Shown piece by piece: positions 3,911 through 15,568 of a stretch of DNA of 64,000 nucleotides (its first letter is position 1; the number at the start of each line of letters is the position of its first letter). The notes under the pieces are model-generated. The model had not been told where the DNA came from. It made no database searches and saw only the letters and a list, made by a program, of their open reading frames with translations. The translations under genes and the position numbers were made by a program. This stretch comes from Candidatus Collierbacteria bacterium GW2011_GWA2_42_17 (GTDB lineage Bacteria > Patescibacteriota > Microgenomatia > UBA1400 > MFAQ01). The DNA lies in the NCBI GenBank assembly GCA_000998275.1, contig LCDA01000001.1:30684-94683 (forward strand), written 5' to 3'.

Positions 3911-4491
3911 TAGCCTAGTAACTGGATTTCGTCTCCGATGAGAGTGACACGGGGCTGAAGGAGAACTTTGATAATAAAGGGATCTTGATGACTTTTTCGA
4001 TAGTTGAACTCGTCTTCAGTCATACAGGAGTAATTTATTTCGGTGTTTAGCAGTTTCTCGGCGGATTTTACCAGGATAGCGACTTGGGGCATAATAATTT
4101 TGCCGATAATCATGAGATCAACTTCTTCCGGATCCCGCTTTAGACCACGAGCAAGTTTTTGGGAGATGAAAGAAAATTTAACAAAACCAAGTTTACTTTT
4201 GTTTTTGAGGACAAGTTTGCCAAGACCGGTGGATTTGGAAACTAAGTTTGAAAGCTCCGGGTAGATAGAAAAGGTAGTCTTAACGGAGTAGTAAAGGCGG
4301 TTACCACGTTTTTCGCTTTTGAGAAGACCGGCTTTTTGGAGATGGTCGAGTTCGCGCCTGACCGCATTAATCTCTTCTTTAGTAGCTCTGGTTAACTCAC
4401 GAACATAAAACATGTTTTTGGAGTCCGAAAGAAAGATCTTTAGGAGCTTAACTCTTACCTTGGAAATGATTAAGTCTGATAATTTGGCCAT
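3910..4491 (-). CDS. winged-HTH protein fused to putative minimal nucleotidyltransferase (Pol-beta superfamily) domain
   Basis: N-terminal ArsR-like wHTH (VRELTRATKEEINAVRRELDHLQKAGLL); C-terminal LARGlkrdpEEVDLMIIG resembles GSxARG...DxD MNT motif. Confidence 0.4.
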   Translation of the reverse strand: MAKLSDLIISKVRVKLLKIFLSDSKNMFYVRELTRATKEEINAVRRELDHLQKAGLLKSEKRGNRLYYSVKTTFSIYPELSNLVSKSTGLGKLVLKNKSKLGFVKFSFISQKLARGLKRDPEEVDLMIIGKIIMPQVAILVKSAEKLLNTEINYSCMTEDEFNYRKSHQDPFIIKVLLQPRVTLIGDEIQLLG

Positions 4492-4515
4492 ATATTTGGG
4501 GCAGGCCTAATATCC

Positions 4516-5733
4516 TTAATTGTATACGACTTTGTTGCCAATGGGTAATATTTCTACCCAGATATTGCCAGGAACAAAAACAATCTCTTTGCCGGCTTTG
4601 TCGGTAAAGATGGTGCGATCTTTCTGTTTGGCTTTTTTCCAAGTAACTTCTACCGCTACGCCATTCTGGAAGACGTAACCAGTTCCGGAACCGATGATAT
4701 CGTAGTACAGGTGTTTACCATAGTCGCCGAGTTCGGTTTCTTTGGCAAACTGGACGATGACGTTTGAGGCAGATAATTGCTGTTTGGTGTCGAGATCGGT
4801 GTGGGCTGTACCACCATTGAAACGGAGATAGGTTTTACTCACGGAGTCATATTTCCACTCAACGGAAAACTCGGAATAGTTTTTCCAGAACTCAAACTTA
4901 ACATCGGTTGCCGGAGTTCCGGAAACGACTAAGTCCGAATTAGTTTTCCACGCCGTGAATCCTGACAGCCAGGGTTTGTCGTTGGGCATTTTGGCAGTGT
5001 AACCTCTTTTTTCGGCTTCTTTCCAAGCATAAGGTAAGTAACCGACATAAGTGTGTTCGGTGGCGATTGTGGCGGCAGTACCAAGTCTGTCGTAGTCTCT
5101 TTTCATGACAGGGATGCCGATGTCTCCGATGGTGTCAAAATCATTACCACCTGGTTTTCTCCAGCCAAGTTTAGCGAGCTCTTCTATGGCAAAAGCTTTG
5201 GGGTTAGAAACACATTGACCGGAAGCTTCGTCACGTCCGCAGTTGGCACCGCCAACGTGCATATAGATAGGGGTGTTGTACTCGGTAGCAAGATTTACAA
5301 AATAAATACGGGCAGATCTGACTGGAGCAACTCTCATGGTGTCGGATTGTGCACCGCAGTAAAAGACACCCATAAAACGAGTAATACCACCTTCGGCAAC
5401 AGCTTCGTAAACAATATCGGCCGAAGATAAACCGGATTGAGGTCTGACTGAAGCGTCATTTTCGATCATAGCCAAAATGGGGCGACGTGTTTCCCAGAGA
5501 GCTTTTTCGGATTTACTGTAGAGCTTGCCATTTAAAGGACAGGCTTCGGTTTTGGGTTCGTTGGCAAATTGGCCAAAACCGGTGGATTTTATGCCAGTTT
5601 CTTCTTCTATCTTGGGAGAGATCAAAACTCCGCCTGAAGCAGGTACGATGGCATAAGCAACTCCTCCGGAGACCAGAAAAGTGACTATCAGACCAATAAT
5701 TGTTTTGAGGGAGAATAATTTTACTGAGGACAT
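4516..5733 (-). CDS. DUF3048 family membrane-anchored protein (YerB-like)
   Basis: N-terminal TM then ...IENdasvRPQSGLssADIVYEavAEGGITRFmgvF, characteristic of DUF3048/YerB. Confidence 0.65.
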   Translation of the reverse strand: MSSVKLFSLKTIIGLIVTFLVSGGVAYAIVPASGGVLISPKIEEETGIKSTGFGQFANEPKTEACPLNGKLYSKSEKALWETRRPILAMIENDASVRPQSGLSSADIVYEAVAEGGITRFMGVFYCGAQSDTMRVAPVRSARIYFVNLATEYNTPIYMHVGGANCGRDEASGQCVSNPKAFAIEELAKLGWRKPGGNDFDTIGDIGIPVMKRDYDRLGTAATIATEHTYVGYLPYAWKEAEKRGYTAKMPNDKPWLSGFTAWKTNSDLVVSGTPATDVKFEFWKNYSEFSVEWKYDSVSKTYLRFNGGTAHTDLDTKQQLSASNVIVQFAKETELGDYGKHLYYDIIGSGTGYVFQNGVAVEVTWKKAKQKDRTIFTDKAGKEIVFVPGNIWVEILPIGNKVVYN

Positions 5734-6195: not shown

Positions 6196-6488
6196 ATTAA
6201 GTTTACTATACTCGACCCATGTCCAAACAAAGAAAAACTAGAAAAGAAAAAGTCAGAAGTGAGATTCGCCAAAAAGAGCGTGAGTCGTTTCAGGTTAAGG
6301 CTGAATGGCTTCAAACAGGCACAAAAAGCACTAAAACGGCAGTTGTTCTGGGAGAAACTGGAAAAAGATTCTTGAGATTGGACTTGACAAAGACTTTTCT
6401 TCTATCTATGCTTGTGCTAGCCTTGGAGTTAGCTTTGTGGCAGTATTTATCAAGGCACTAACAAAAAGAAAGGGGGTGAACCAAGAAA

Positions 6489-6629
6489 ATGCAGATCTAT
6501 TGTGTAAAATGTAGAGCCAAAAGAGACGTTACCGAATTCGAAAGAGTTACTATGAAAAATGGTAAACCAGCCGTAAAAGCTGTTTGTCCAGTTTGTGGCA
6601 CCAAAATGTTCAAAATCGGCGCTAAGTAA
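6489..6629 (+). CDS. small zinc-ribbon protein (DUF5679-like), 46 aa
   Basis: Not in ORF track (<60 aa). MQIYCVKCRAKRDVTEFERVTMKNGKPAVKAVCPVCGTKMFKIGAK; CxxC..CxxC; strong RBS aaagggggtg and TTGACA-17-TATGCT promoter upstream. Confidence 0.5.
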   Translation: MQIYCVKCRAKRDVTEFERVTMKNGKPAVKAVCPVCGTKMFKIGAK

Positions 6630-6689
6630 AAGCCGTCTTAAAACCCAAGAGAGAGAAATCTACCTTGGGTTTTTTGCTGAAAAAAGAGG

Positions 6690-7478: not shown

Positions 7479-7790
7479 CTCCCGGGTGCTGGTGAGGAAT
7501 GCCCTACCGCAAGGTGGGGAGGAAAGTCCGGACAGCTAAAAGATAGGGTGGCCGAGGAAACTCGGTTCTTCTCGAGGTAACTCGAGAAGCGCGATAGGGC
7601 CACAGAGACGAATAAAGGTGAAACGCTCTTGGATACAAGAGATTGCTTAGAAGTAATTCTAAGCAAGTGGTAACCCGCCCCGCTGCAATCGACGAATTGG
7701 GATTAAGGTATCTTTTCCGTCCCAGAAGTCTCGAGCATTAGATAGATGTTCCTCCTAGACAGAATCCGGCTTACTATGACCCGGGAGTCC
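7479..7790 (+). ncRNA. rnpB: RNase P RNA, bacterial type A-like, compact
   Basis: P1 helix ctCCCGGGtg.../...CCCGGGagt; conserved GGAAAGTCCGGaC (CR-I), AAAGGTGAAAcG (CR-IV), GGTAACCCGCC P15 loop, ACAGAAtCCGGCTTA (CR-V). Confidence 0.8.
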
Positions 7791-12944: not shown

Positions 12945-13457
12945 TTAGTCTTCAATGTACTCTGAGTCAAATAGTTTATTTATGGCGGAGGAACTGAAAC
13001 CTCGGGCATAGAGCTTGGAGGTAATCTTGTACTTGTCTAGTTTTGGGTATTTGAGGGTATATTTTTTGATGGCTGCGACTTGTTTGGCGATACTTGCTTC
13101 TTCCAAGGCGAGCTCAATTACTTCCCTATTTAGCTTCATTCTGCCTAGTTTGAGACTAATTATTCTGGGGCCGTAACACTTGTCCAGCTGACGTCTAGCA
13201 AAAGCCTGGGCAAGATAGGGATCATCGAGGTAGCCGCTCTTTTTTAGATCTTTTAGGATGTCTGTAATTACCTTCGATGCATTTTCAAACTTGAGCTTTT
13301 TGGATCTTAAAACAAGTTTTTGACGAATTGTTTCCTCAAAATATGGTCTTCGGCTAAGACAAAAGGCCGCGTATTTTATAAGACTAGCTCTGATCTCACT
13401 TGGTGATAGTTGCTCCGGCATTGACTTTGGCAACGACTTCTTTCTTGATTTTTTCAA
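12945..13457 (-). CDS. recX: recombination regulator RecX
   Basis: three-helix-repeat basic protein immediately downstream of recA; true start probably internal. Confidence 0.6.
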
Positions 13458-14451
13458 TCATTTCCGGTTTTTCGGCAAGAATGGCTTTAGCAGCCTCTCT
13501 TCCTTGGGCAATGGTTTCGCCGTTGTATTTTAGGAAAGCACCAGCTTTTTCGATAATTTCGTAAGCGATGGCGGTGTCCAGGAGATCACCCAACTTACTG
13601 ATACCACCGATATTAAGAATATCGAACTCGGCTGACCTGAAAGGGGAAGCTACTTTGTTTTTGACGATTTTGGCACGATGACGGGAGCCAACAATTTCTT
13701 CACCTTCTTGGATATTGCCAATTTTGCGCATGTCGATACGAATCGAAGCATAAAATTTGAGAGCTTTTCCTCCGGTGGTCACTTCTGGATTACCGAACAT
13801 GACGCCGATTTTGTCGCGAAGTTGATTGGTAAAAATGACGATACACTTACTCTTGGAAATGGCGCCGGTAATCTTTCTTAGAGCTTGACTCATGAGTCTG
13901 GCCTGCATACCCATGGAAGCGTCCCCCATTTCGCCTTCAATTTCGGCTTTGGGAACAAGGGCGGCGACAGAGTCGATGACGACAACATCAACACCACCTG
14001 AACGAATGAGGGTTTCGGCAATTTCAAGAGCCTGTTCGCCATTGTCCGGCTGGGAAAGTAAGAGGCTGTCCAGATCAACCCCAATGGACTTGGCTCTGGT
14101 AGGATCGACAGCGTGTTCGGCATCGATGAAGGCGGCTACTCCGCCCGCCTTTTGGGCTTCGGAAATAACGTGGAGAGCGAGCGTGGTTTTACCTGAGGCT
14201 TCTGGACCGTAGATTTCGATAATTCTTCCTTTAGGAAAGCCACCTACACCGAGAGCAAGATCGAGACTGATTGAACCAGAAGAAATGACTGGGATTTTTT
14301 CATTGATTTTGTCTGACCCCATGCGCATGATGGCGCCCTCACCATATTGCTTGGTGATTTGCTGCATAGCAATCTTGACAGCGGTTAGACGATCGTCATT
14401 GTTACTTACTTGGACAACTTTGGCTTTCTCTTCTTTTGCTTTTTTGGGCAT
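13396..14451 (-). CDS. recA: recombinase RecA
   Basis: [16 protein letters not shown] Walker A, full-length RecA similarity. Confidence 0.95.
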
Positions 14452-15187
14452 AAACTTTCGGGTTTTTTACTAATCTAAATCCATTATAGATATCTTGTGT
14501 TTTTTTGCAAGATGTTTAATTTATTTTGAAGGCGATTGTGCGGAAATAGATCACTCAGAAATAGACTTATTAGGCACAGTTTATATTCTTTGGCTTTTTG
14601 GAGTTTTGTTTTCATCAGACTGTCATAGTTTTTAAGTTGGCCACAAAGTCCAAACAATTCAATCCCATGAACGGTCGAATTTATTATGACAAAAATTACA
14701 TTCTACCTTAATAAAACTCATGATTTATTTAACCAAATTTTACCCGAAACATCAAGAGTGAAAACTGTTCTTTATGTTATAATTCAGTCCGTTCGGGGTA
14801 TAGTATAACGGTAGTATCTACGGCTGGGGGTCGTAGGGCCTGAGATCGTCACTCAGTACCCCGACTAAAAGTGAATCGTGTTCCCTGTTGGTATACTCAG
14901 TGACATGAATCGTTTTTTTGAAAAAGTATTTGTATTTAAGTTTGTTTTTGTTGTCCGGGAAAAACGTATTTTAAATTCTGGCTATGCCGAAGGGGTGTTT
15001 AGTCTCAATGGCGGTGTTTATTTAAACTTGGTTACCTGTGATGGGGTTTGGGATTTGAATAAAAAAAGTTATAACAAACGTCTGGTGGTTTTTACTGAAG
15101 GATTACGAATGTAACCAGAGGATTTGCACTTCTGGTTTAATATTTTGCCTCTGGTAATTTAGATTTATGATGATATATTTTCTTTAA

Positions 15188-15568
15188 ATGAATAAGGAAG
15201 TTGAATACTACCCTCCGTGTGAAGCTCCGGTTCATAACGGGTCATGTGATGGCGTTGGTAATACGATAGATCACTTTACTCCAAGATGTATTGGGAAACT
15301 CTGGGGGTGGAGTAATGAACAAATAAATGCGGAGGAAAATATTCAACATCTTTCCGAACCGTGCCATAGAGACAAGGACAGAACAACTGAGGCAAGACTT
15401 CTTTTAGCAAGAAAACAGTTAAAGGGCGTGTACATTAGTCTGGAGTATTATCTGACGGTGGAAGATCCAAATTTTATTCATAACGAAAAACCTCGGAAAG
15501 CAAAAAAGGAAAGACGTCGAAAGCAACGCAGAAATACCCTGAGACCCAGAGGAAAAAAGAGTTATTGA
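15188..15568 (+). CDS. small free-standing HNH endonuclease
   Basis: CxxC...DHftP...GG..N...L...CH..K pattern (HNH/McrA-like), basic C-terminal tail. Confidence 0.6.
   Translation: MNKEVEYYPPCEAPVHNGSCDGVGNTIDHFTPRCIGKLWGWSNEQINAEENIQHLSEPCHRDKDRTTEARLLLARKQLKGVYISLEYYLTVEDPNFIHNEKPRKAKKERRRKQRRNTLRPRGKKSY

What the first reader, a model, noticed from the sequence alone, without database searches (positions are those of the whole stretch)
14452..15187. Unusually long noncoding gap (~740 bp) in a gene-dense genome, next to a free-standing HNH endonuclease
Elsewhere in the window intergenic spacers are mostly under 100 bp. This AT-rich gap between recA and the HNH gene holds no convincing ORF. 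The 78-aa ORF at 14878-15114 starts with GTG and looks like a low-complexity artefact. The gap does contain a tRNA-like structure and a 10-bp inverted repeat. The HNH gene is the only plus-strand gene for ~9 kb. Together these suggest a structured ncRNA and/or the remnant of a mobile insertion. An HNH nuclease beside a structured RNA is reminiscent in organisation only of nuclease-guide RNA pairs; that comparison is speculative.
Basis: partly seen in the sequence, partly recalled or inferred. Interest (0 to 1): 0.6.

Follow-up and report, generated by a model that had tools for sequence, protein, structure and literature searches.

The report
tRNA gene flanked by gene wreckage
The long "empty" stretch next to recA in this Candidatus Collierbacteria genome holds an ordinary proline tRNA gene, two promoters and the broken remains of genes that a sister genome still has intact, so it is not a new RNA or a nuclease-guide pair.

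Summary
The gap is real. At 736 bp and 34% GC it is the longest stretch without an intact protein gene in a window whose median spacer is 13 bp. Almost every base is now accounted for.

- **tRNA:** 14794-14865 is a genuine tRNA-Pro(GGG). It scores 41 bits on the Rfam tRNA model. Orthologues lie beside recA in 30 or more relatives, with strong compensatory covariation.
- **recA-tRNA spacer:** relatives need only about 90-120 bp here. The window's 342 bp is inflated by a 259-aa homing-endonuclease-like gene that has lost about 600 bp internally. The gene is intact in sister genome L003.
- **Downstream of the tRNA:** the 78-aa ORF is a deletion chimera. The first ~12-16 codons of a membrane-protein gene are fused, at a 14-nt microhomology, to the last ~57 codons of a sortase.
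- **Regulatory parts:** the recA, tRNA and 126-aa-gene upstream regions are the other conserved pieces.
- **The 126-aa gene:** it is a divergent HNH protein under purifying selection (dN/dS 0.08). It keeps its position in relatives and is absent from some.
- **No other RNA:** no structured RNA, attachment repeats or guide-RNA organisation was found.

One oddity remains: the tRNA's T-loop has A54/U58 where tRNAs almost always have U54/A58.

The parts
13396..14451 (-). recA (351 aa), the left border of the gap
   Evidence: Pfam RecA E 1e-129. The protein is identical in 42 contigs, which name it Candidatus Collierbacteria bacterium GW2011_GWA2_42_17.
14452..14482 (-). recA 5' untranslated leader, conserved
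   Evidence...TAGATTAGYAAAAAACCCGAAAGTTT-ATG is nearly invariant in 12 relatives.
14483..14510 (-). recA promoter: -35 TTGCAA, 16-nt spacer, -10 TATAAT
   Evidence: The consensus scan matches 10 of 12 positions. Both hexamers are conserved in all 12 aligned relatives. Homology to short-spacer relatives ends at about 14518-14528.
14484..14663 (-). C-terminal remnant (59 codons plus stop) of a 259-aa HNH_repeat (PF18780) homing-endonuclease-like gene
   Evidence: BLASTP gives 72% identity to residues 203-259 of the intact L003 protein, E 2e-25. The L003 protein carries PF18780 at E 5e-9.
14659..14721 (-). N-terminal remnant (20 codons then stop) of the same gene, in a different frame from the C-terminal piece
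   Evidence: It translates to MSFIKVECNFCHNKFDRSWD*, against MTRILIICSFCKGKIYRN in L003. The ATG lies 73 nt from the tRNA in both genomes. The three-way alignment shows about 600 bp missing.
14775..14783 (+). Probable tRNA promoter, an extended -10 element TGTTATAAT
   Evidence: Read directly from the sequence. L003 has TGATATAAT at the same place, and short-spacer relatives have TGATAAAAT or TGGTAAAAT. This is an inference; no expression data exist.
14794..14865 (+). tRNA-Pro, anticodon GGG, with a non-canonical T-loop AUCGUCA (A54, U58)
   Evidence: ARAGORN. Rfam RF00005 41.2 bits against 29. Orthologues sit divergently beside recA in L003, L093, L094 and L021 and in about 30 metagenome loci. 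Across 20 sequences 99.5% of cells are paired and 11 of 22 pairs change on both sides.
14875..14953 (+). 5' end (upstream region, ATG at 14905, first ~12-16 codons) of a membrane glycosyltransferase-like gene. A 435-aa version is intact in L094. The piece ends in the 14-nt microhomology at 14940-14953.
   Evidence: blastn gives 75% identity to L094 3757-3864, E 4e-16. The three-way alignment shows the switch from L094-like to L003-sortase-like sequence at GTTTGTTTTT(A/G)TTG. The L094 protein is weakly similar to NF047440, a putative glycosyltransferase family.
14940..15114 (+). C-terminal ~57 codons of a sortase. The catalytic Cys and Arg motifs are kept; the His and the N-terminal membrane anchor are lost. 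It is fused in frame to the piece above, giving the 69/78-aa ORF.
   Evidence: Pfam Sortase profile positions 75-123 of 125, 17.2 bits, below the 26.6 cutoff. BLASTP against the intact 203-aa L003 sortase gives E 2e-30. DNA is 82-83% identical to L003 3294-3047.
15113..15137 (+). Terminator-like hairpin followed by a T-rich tail, at the end of the sortase remnant
   Evidence: Consensus scan: 9-pair stem. It also appears in the minimum-energy fold. It is only partly conserved in L003. Function is inferred.
15140..15187 (+). Conserved upstream region (probable promoter and leader) of the 126-aa gene
   Evidence: It aligns with L003, L177 (87.5%), L166, L150 and L094, whatever gene lies upstream in each.
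15188..15568 (+). 126-aa divergent HNH-family protein, the right border of the gap

Best explanation
The gap is not one element. It is a small hypervariable islet around a conserved tRNA gene, and in this genome the islet is in a decayed state.

The stable backbone in this Collierbacteria clade is recA(-) | tRNA-Pro(GGG)(+) | variable cargo | (126-aa HNH gene) | bactofilin-like gene. recA and the tRNA are transcribed divergently from back-to-back promoters that fit in about 90-120 bp in most relatives.

1. An ancestor of this genome and its sister L003 carried a 259-aa free-standing endonuclease-like gene between recA and the tRNA. It has zinc fingers and a homing-endonuclease-associated repeat. 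Its C-terminal half looks to me like a nuclease domain, but that was not tested. Here the gene has lost about 600 internal bp. What remains is 20 N-terminal codons and 59 C-terminal codons in different reading frames.

2. Downstream of the tRNA, a deletion between two copies of a 14-nt microhomology (GTTTGTTTTTxTTG) joined about codon 12-16 of a membrane-protein gene to about codon 147 of a sortase gene. This removed everything between them and left a 69/78-aa chimeric ORF that lacks the sortase catalytic histidine and its membrane anchor.

3. What remains functional is the recA promoter and leader, the tRNA with its promoter, and the promoter of the 126-aa HNH gene.

Shown here: homologies, breakpoints, tRNA covariation, synteny and selection on the HNH gene. 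Inferred: the direction of the events (loss here rather than gain in L003), the microhomology-mediated mechanism, and the promoter assignments.
For: - **Sister genome.** L003 (GCA_049303575.1) has an identical RecA protein and a recA dS of 0.47. In the same interval it carries the intact 259-aa gene, the tRNA, an ice-binding-like surface protein with an LPNAG sorting signal, an intact 203-aa sortase and the 126-aa gene.
- **Colinearity.** Window 14452-14668, 14723-14865 and 14940-15187 are colinear with L003. About 600 bp and about 1.75 kb are missing between them.
- **Remnants.** The C-terminal remnant is 72% identical over 57 aa, E 2e-25. The N-terminal remnant sits at the same distance from the tRNA. 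The sortase remnant matches at E 2e-30 but covers only the C-terminal part of the domain.
- **Junction.** The alignment shows the switch from the L094 membrane-gene 5' end to sortase sequence at a shared 14-nt motif.
- **Short spacers elsewhere.** Relatives L093, L094, L148, L170, L165 and L142 have recA-tRNA spacers of 106-121 bp. These hold only the conserved promoter and leader block.
- **Independent decay.** L113, L116, L152 and L155 carry a separate internal deletion of the same 259-aa gene with different breakpoints. In the protein frame pN/pS is 0.16-0.26, against about 1 in the other frames. So the divergence accumulated while the gene was intact, and inactivation is recent.
- **Variable cargo.** Cargo downstream of the tRNA differs in nearly every lineage. 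L177 has none, L108 has a sortase only, L094 has a methyltransferase plus a membrane protein plus a 238-aa protein, L093 has a GIY-YIG gene plus hemerythrin, and in L142 the tRNA is followed directly by the bactofilin-like gene.
- **tRNA.**
- **No excess RNA structure** outside the tRNA and no Rfam family.
Against: - The direction of change is inferred from truncated reading frames and from outgroups. No dated phylogeny was made.
- The exact ancestor that held both the membrane-protein gene and the sortase was not observed. L094 has the first and L003 the second.
- The N-terminal remnant is too short for a significant score on its own.
- There are no expression data, so the promoters, the terminator and the silence of the remnants are inferences.
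- The C-terminal remnant keeps an open frame with a low pN/pS, so a residual peptide function is not formally excluded.
Confidence: 0.88

Rival explanations
1. The gap encodes a novel structured non-coding RNA, possibly a guide or partner RNA for the adjacent HNH nuclease, by analogy with IscB/Cas9/TnpB-type nuclease-RNA pairs.
Against: - The folded RNA is an orthologous tRNA-Pro with full cloverleaf covariation.
- The rest of the gap folds no better than shuffles (z -1.26, +0.16, -1.05) and has no Rfam match.
- The rest of the gap is made of recognisable coding remnants.
- The protein is 126 aa with no RuvC or other domain.
- The tRNA-to-HNH spacing and content vary from 115 bp to about 3 kb, and several relatives have the tRNA without the HNH gene.
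Confidence: 0.02
2. The tRNA-Pro(GGG) copy in this genome is itself a decaying pseudogene, because its T-loop has lost the near-universal U54 and A58.
For: The T-loop is AUCGUCA. The Rfam score is 12.5 bits lower than for the L003 orthologue (41.2 against 53.7). The default-filter scans missed the gene. A GGG-anticodon proline tRNA can be dispensable where a UGG isoacceptor exists (general knowledge, not checked here). The neighbourhood is full of decaying genes.
Against: - All 21 cloverleaf pairs are intact in the window copy, together with G18G19, U33, G37 and G53-C61.
- The same A54/U58 loop occurs in L173 and L175 with compensatory T-stem changes, and L166 has A54/A58. So the variant has persisted through speciation.
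- Compared with L003, acceptor, anticodon-stem and T-stem pairs changed on both sides.
- The extended -10 element upstream is retained.
Confidence: 0.18
3. One or both surviving ORFs are functional small proteins rather than wreckage. These are the 69/78-aa membrane-start/sortase-end chimera at 14878 or 14905-15114, and the 57-aa C-terminal piece at 14484-14657.
For: Both frames are open. The chimera is an in-frame fusion that keeps the donor gene's upstream region and start codon and is followed by a terminator-like hairpin. The C-terminal piece has pN/pS 0.16-0.26 in its own frame, and an ATG-started version also survives in L113. Gene callers annotate the 69/78-aa ORF in public assemblies.
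Against: - The chimera lacks the catalytic His and most of the sortase fold.
- It is found only in this species cluster, so selection cannot be tested.
- Its dN/dS against L003 is raised: 0.27 compared with 0.04-0.13 for neighbouring genes.
- The low pN/pS of the C-terminal piece is expected if the deletions are recent and independent, which the different breakpoints indicate.
- The 57-aa ORF starts with TTG and overlaps the recA promoter.
Confidence: 0.06
4. The window shows the ancestral state, and the extra genes in L003 are later insertions, for example an integrative element at the tRNA, so nothing was deleted here.
For: tRNA genes are classic integration sites. The cargo differs among relatives, and L177 (97% identical to L003) lacks the ice-binding/sortase cassette. 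The short recA-tRNA spacer in most lineages shows that the 259-aa gene was gained at some earlier point.
Against: - The window holds truncated, out-of-frame or domain-incomplete pieces of those very genes. Insertion in L003 cannot produce these.
- No integrase is present in any variant.
- No tRNA-derived direct repeats flank the cargo. The longest exact match is 9-11 nt.
Confidence: 0.03

Closest known systems
Bacterial tRNA gene (Rfam RF00005), specifically tRNA-Pro with anticodon GGG
   Same: Full cloverleaf, 7-nt anticodon loop with U33 and G37, G18G19, G53-C61, and a score above the Rfam threshold. It has a conserved orthologous position and covarying stems.
   Different: The T-loop has A54 and U58 where tRNAs have U54 and A58. 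A review calls U54 universal apart from eukaryotic initiator tRNA, which has A54-A58 (PMC7912444). CCA is not encoded in this copy.
Variable genomic islets and integration hot spots next to tRNA genes
   Same: A conserved tRNA is flanked by cargo that differs between closely related genomes. The cargo includes surface-protein/sortase cassettes and nuclease genes.
   Different: No integrase and no attachment-site repeats derived from the tRNA. Both flanks of the tRNA vary. The turnover looks like small replacements and deletions rather than excision and integration of one element.
Gain, decay and loss cycle of free-standing homing endonuclease genes (Goddard and Burt model; cited from my own knowledge)
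   Same: An endonuclease-associated gene (PF18780 repeat) is intact in some strains and was independently inactivated by internal deletions in at least two lineages. Other nuclease-type genes (GIY-YIG, DUF559-like by my reading) occupy the same islet in other relatives.
   Different: No homing site, intron or intein is involved. Nuclease activity and mobility of the 259-aa protein are untested.
Microhomology-mediated (short direct repeat) deletion creating chimeric pseudogenes
   Same: The junction at 14940-14953 lies in a 14-nt motif shared by the two parental genes. One copy of the motif is retained.
   Different: The parental arrangement is reconstructed from two different relatives, not observed in a single genome.
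Small stand-alone HNH endonucleases of phages, such as the Geobacillus virus E2 HNH protein (PDB 5h0m/5h0o) and PHROG 4234
   Different: It is below Pfam and NCBIfam detection. It is chromosomal and keeps its position in a Collierbacteria clade. It has a conserved helical extension and a basic tail. There is no terminase or phage context.

Membership tests
tRNA (Rfam RF00005) | Covariance-model score at or above the curated threshold | tested here: met
   41.2 bits against a gathering score of 29, covering model positions 1-71. Default filters missed it in larger searches.
tRNA (Rfam RF00005) | Four-stem cloverleaf maintained by compensatory change among orthologues | tested here: met
   Among 20 orthologues, 99.5% of cells are paired, 11 of 22 pairs change on both sides, and the covariation score is 0.427 against 0.125 in shuffles and 0.084 or less in slid controls.
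tRNA (Rfam RF00005) | Canonical T-loop with U54 and A58 (reverse Hoogsteen pair), U55 and C56 | tested here: not met
   The window has A54 U55 C56 G57 U58. U55 and C56 are kept. A54/U58 is shared with L173 and L175, and L166 has A54/A58.
tRNA (Rfam RF00005) | Transcribed, processed and aminoacylated | not testable with these tools
   No expression data are available.
Sortase (PF04203), for ORF 14878-15114 | Complete catalytic domain with the His-Cys-Arg triad and an N-terminal membrane anchor | tested here: not met
   Only profile positions 75-123 of 125 are matched, at 17.2 bits against a 26.6 cutoff. It aligns to about residues 122-203 of the 203-aa L003 sortase (clear homology from about residue 147). 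The part with the AGH motif and the anchor is absent.
HNH endonuclease (PF01844 / beta-beta-alpha-Me fold), for the 126-aa neighbour | Significant match to an HNH profile | tested here: inconclusive
   The protein itself gets no Pfam or NCBIfam hit. PHROG HNH families match at E 2e-4 and 2e-3. 14 of 92 family members hit PF01844. The family profile hits PDB 5h0m at E 0.004.
HNH endonuclease (PF01844 / beta-beta-alpha-Me fold), for the 126-aa neighbour | Conserved catalytic D/H-N-H residues and metal-binding cysteines | tested here: met
   D28, H29, N51, H60, C11 and C20 are invariant or at least 90% conserved across 92 family members.
HNH endonuclease (PF01844 / beta-beta-alpha-Me fold), for the 126-aa neighbour | Beta-beta-alpha fold similar to solved HNH nucleases | tested here: inconclusive
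RNA-guided nuclease systems (Cas9, IscB, TnpB with guide or omega RNA) | Large multidomain nuclease (RuvC with or without HNH) encoded next to a conserved structured guide RNA | tested here: not met
   The protein is a 126-aa single HNH domain. No conserved non-tRNA RNA is present. The content between the tRNA and the gene is variable.
tRNA-targeting integrative element / genomic island | Integrase gene plus direct repeats of the tRNA 3' end bounding the insert | tested here: not met
   No integrase appears in any variant. The longest tRNA-derived repeat within 4 kb is 9-11 nt.
Homing-endonuclease-associated protein (PF18780 HNH_repeat), for remnant 14484-14721 | Presence of the PF18780 repeat and an intact reading frame | tested here: not met
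   The intact L003 orthologue has the repeat at residues 94-141. The window retains only about residues 1-18 and 201-259, in different frames.

The most novel reading that the evidence does not exclude
The two flanks of tRNA-Pro(GGG) may be a preferred landing site for several unrelated free-standing nuclease genes in Collierbacteria and related Microgenomates. The candidates are the PF18780/zinc-finger protein, a GIY-YIG gene, a DUF559-like gene and the small HNH gene. On this reading the tRNA gene evolves unusually fast, partly as a consequence of that conflict. It carries many compensatory stem changes and a swap of the almost universal U54-A58 T-loop pair to A54-U58. The swapped tRNA would then be a functional elongator tRNA with a non-canonical elbow.
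Probability: 0.1. Interest if true: 0.55.

Novelty: new member of a known kind. Interest (0 to 1): 0.2.

Why it matters
It mostly removes a false lead. A conspicuous AT-rich "non-coding" gap next to a nuclease gene in a reduced candidate-phyla-radiation genome turns out to be a tRNA gene plus recently broken accessory genes.

It is also a clean, base-resolved example of how streamlined genomes shed accessory genes through short-repeat deletions. It shows a tRNA-flanking islet turning over within a species-level clade.

Two practical lessons follow. Default Rfam filters can miss a real tRNA whose T-loop is unusual. Small ORFs called by gene finders in such gaps can be deletion chimeras.

The A54/U58 T-loop variant, shared by several lineages with compensatory stem changes, is a modest but genuine curiosity for tRNA structure and modification biology.

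Tried and rejected
- **RecA scan of genome contigs.** Exact-protein look-ups and a tRNA 5'-half pattern scan of metagenomes gave the informative relatives.
- **Rfam.** The whole-window gathering scan and the 1.4-kb scan at E up to 10 found no tRNA. Only a 141-nt search did.
- **Sequence searches for the 126-aa protein.** Pfam, NCBIfam and PDB searches with the protein or a 9-member profile found nothing.
- **Structure work on the 126-aa protein.** AlphaFold with 8 sequences gave pLDDT 45 and was discarded. Foldseek against the PDB gave no match.
- **Fold energies** of the three non-tRNA segments were not better than shuffles.
- **The palindrome at 14487-14518** over the recA promoter was considered as an operator. 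It is not conserved in relatives.
- **Inverted and direct repeats** in the gap look like chance matches.
- **tRNA-derived attachment repeats** were searched for; none were found.
- **Homologues of the chimeric ORF** were found only within the same species, plus two contig-end fragments.
- **PDB sequence search of the 259-aa protein** was uninformative.
- **The Zagryadskaya et al. 2003 paper** on the 54-58 pair (PMC165963) is not held.

Full report
**Observation**

recA ends its reading frame at 14451 (minus strand; Pfam RecA E 1e-129). The next intact protein gene is the 126-aa ORF at 15188-15568 on the plus strand. A crude greedy gene call over the window gives 71 genes with a median spacer of 13 bp. 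Once an artefact (recX overlapping recA) and the RNase P RNA locus (7481-7789) are set aside, this is the longest stretch without an intact gene. It is AT-rich: 34.1% GC against 43.6% for the window. The exact RecA protein occurs on 42 contigs, and NCBI names the source Candidatus Collierbacteria bacterium GW2011_GWA2_42_17 (Microgenomates, candidate phyla radiation).

**The tRNA**

- ARAGORN finds one tRNA in the whole window: tRNA-Pro(GGG) at 14794-14865 (+).
- Rfam's tRNA model did not report it in the whole-window scan or in a 1.4-kb scan at E up to 10.
- A 141-nt search, which uses laxer filters, gives 41.2 bits against a gathering score of 29 over the whole model. The L003 orthologue scores 53.7 bits. 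The earlier misses were therefore filter losses.
- The same tRNA lies divergently beside recA in L003, L093, L094 and a Daviesbacteria genome. It does so in about 30 of 80 metagenome loci retrieved with a pattern from its 5' half.
- On 20 distinct orthologues the cloverleaf is 99.5% paired. Eleven of 22 pairs change on both sides, and the covariation score is 0.427, against 0.125 for shuffles and 0.084 or less for slid controls.
- The window copy forms all stem pairs and keeps G18G19, U33, G37 and G53-C61.
- Its one anomaly is the T-loop AUCGUCA, with A54 and U58 in place of U54 and A58. L173 and L175 share this loop with a compensated T-stem. L166 has A54/A58. L003 is canonical.
- A review states that U54 is universal except in eukaryotic initiator tRNA, which has A54-A58 (PMC7912444).

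**The recA-to-tRNA spacer (14452-14793)**

- In most relatives this spacer is 106-121 bp (L093, L094, L148, L170, L165, L142).
- The part shared with the window is 14452 to about 14520. It holds a nearly invariant leader and a TTGCRA-N16/17-TATAAT promoter.
- The extra sequence in the window is a broken gene. Sister genome L003 has an identical RecA protein and a recA dS of 0.47. It carries a 259-aa ORF between recA and the tRNA, with a treble-clef zinc finger and the PF18780 homing-endonuclease-associated repeat.
- Window 14484-14663 (minus strand) encodes the last 59 residues of that protein, at 72-75% identity, E 2e-25.
- Window 14659-14721 (minus strand) encodes a start codon at the same distance from the tRNA as in L003, then MSFIKVECNFCHNKFDRSWD and a stop. 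L003 reads MTRILIICSFCKGKIYRN.
- The two pieces are in different frames, and about 600 bp between them is gone.
- L113, L116, L152 and L155 (RecA about 89% identical) carry a different internal deletion of the same gene.
- Over the 38 shared C-terminal codons, pN/pS is 0.16-0.26 in the protein frame and about 1 in the other frames for the window-L113 comparison (0.38 and 0.96 for window-L003). The alleles therefore diverged while coding, and the inactivations are recent and independent.

**The tRNA-to-HNH stretch (14866-15187)**

- The 78-aa ORF is not low-complexity noise. It matches the C-terminal part of the sortase domain (profile positions 75-123 of 125, below the Pfam cutoff).
- It aligns to about residues 122-203 of the intact 203-aa class-F-like sortase of L003 at E 2e-30, with clear homology from about residue 147.
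- In L003 that sortase follows an ice-binding-like surface protein with an LPNAG sorting signal.
- The first part of the window ORF (14875 to about 14953, with an ATG at 14905) instead matches the upstream region and first codons of a 435-aa membrane glycosyltransferase-like gene of L094.
- A three-way alignment shows the switch between the two parents inside a 14-nt motif, GTTTGTTTTT(A/G)TTG, that both parents carry (window 14940-14953). This is the signature of a deletion between short direct repeats.
- The resulting in-frame chimera keeps the sortase Cys and Arg motifs but lacks the His and the anchor. Its dN/dS against L003 is 0.27, compared with 0.04-0.13 for neighbouring genes. It occurs only in this species cluster.
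- A terminator-like hairpin follows at 15113-15137.
- 15140-15187 is conserved upstream of the 126-aa gene in L003, L177, L166, L150 and L094, whatever lies further upstream.

**The islet in relatives**

The backbone recA | tRNA-Pro | ... | bactofilin-like gene | epimerase | PGA_cap | ribosomal genes is conserved. The content around the tRNA is not.

| Locus | Content around the tRNA |
|---|---|
| L003 | 259-aa gene; ice-binding protein plus sortase; 126-aa gene |
| L177 (97% identical to L003) | 259-aa gene; then tRNA, hairpin and 126-aa gene within 115 bp |
| L108 | sortase only |
| L094 | methyltransferase, membrane protein, 238-aa protein |
| L093 | GIY-YIG gene, hemerythrin, broken 238-aa gene |
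| L150, L156, L175 | other inserts between recA and the tRNA; the L156 insert looks DUF559-like by my reading of the sequence, untested |
| L142, L162, L174 | tRNA followed directly by the bactofilin-like gene, with no 126-aa gene |

No integrase appears in any variant, and no tRNA-derived repeats bound the cargo. This is therefore not a classical integrative island.

**The 126-aa neighbour**

- Pfam, NCBIfam and a small-profile PDB search gave nothing.
- An exhaustive profile search found 116 representatives of a family of roughly 100-aa proteins.
- Across 92 of them, C11, C20, D28, H29, N51 and H60 are 90% or more conserved.
- 14 of the 92 hit PF01844. The profile hits the GVE2 phage HNH endonuclease 5h0m at E 0.004. 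PHROG HNH families match the window protein directly at E 2e-4.
- It is therefore a divergent HNH-type protein under purifying selection (dN/dS 0.083). It keeps its position where present and is absent from some relatives. Nothing ties it functionally to the tRNA.

**Other RNA**

Outside the tRNA the three segments fold no better than dinucleotide shuffles (z -1.26, +0.16, -1.05). Rfam reports only chance-level hits. The short inverted repeats, including the palindrome over the recA promoter, are not conserved.

**Conclusion**

The gap is a real tRNA-Pro gene, three promoter or leader blocks, and the remains of three genes. The remains were produced by two recent deletions in a hypervariable tRNA-flanking islet.

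The guide-RNA analogy is not supported.

The only unusual feature is the A54/U58 T-loop, which is shared by several lineages.

Noticed in passing
window 14845-14851 (T-loop of the tRNA at 14794-14865); also L173, L175, L166: tRNA-Pro(GGG) has the T-loop AUCGUCA, with A54 and U58 instead of the near-universal U54 and A58. L173 and L175 share it with compensatory T-stem changes. L166 has A54/A58, which looks like an intermediate. Sister genome L003 is canonical. This may be a functional non-canonical elbow in an elongator tRNA.
   Followed up: partly
window 14794-14865: Rfam's default speed filters missed this real tRNA in the 64-kb gathering scan and in a 1.4-kb scan at E up to 10. It scores 41.2 bits when only 141 nt are searched. 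Covariance scans of candidate-phyla-radiation genomes can therefore lose atypical tRNAs.
   Followed up: yes
window 7481-7789 (+): Bacterial RNase P RNA class A at 111.5 bits. It is short (309 nt), and several peripheral helices of the 367-position model are deleted.
   Followed up: no
L099 (4066-4144), L129, L136, L147 (1727-1857): Partial duplicates of the tRNA-Pro 5' half lie next to, or a few tens of bases from, a full tRNA copy in other metagenome contigs. They may be scars of recombination or integration at the tRNA.
   Followed up: no
L120, 47-370 nt downstream of the tRNA start: A tandem repeat of about 90 nt gives a repetitive 107-aa ORF (RGNIFPNLWSGYSPAHRNK...SSVLRGEL, about three and a half copies) directly after the tRNA.
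   Followed up: no
L003 5188-5967; L093 about 6430-6679; L156 94-468 nt upstream of the tRNA: Three unrelated nuclease-type small genes occupy the same recA/tRNA-Pro islet in different relatives: a PF18780 zinc-finger protein, a GIY-YIG protein, and a protein that looks DUF559/Vsr-like by eye. This hints at a preferred landing site for selfish nuclease genes.
   Followed up: partly
L010 (GCA_000997955.1) 1-982; L007 (GCA_003512045.1) about 4362-5700: recA is split into two ORFs in L010 and is not called in L007. Both assemblies are otherwise near-identical to the window in the region compared, so these are probably assembly or frameshift errors.
   Followed up: no
window 12945-13457 / 13396-14451: In the mechanical ORF list the recX ORF overlaps the 3' end of recA by about 60 nt. 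Gene callers use a later start, giving a 158-aa protein that overlaps recA by 26 nt.
   Followed up: no
L093 7187-7902: The 238-aa secreted or membrane protein that is intact in L094 and L150 is broken into two pieces in L093. This is another decaying gene in the same islet in a different lineage.
   Followed up: partly
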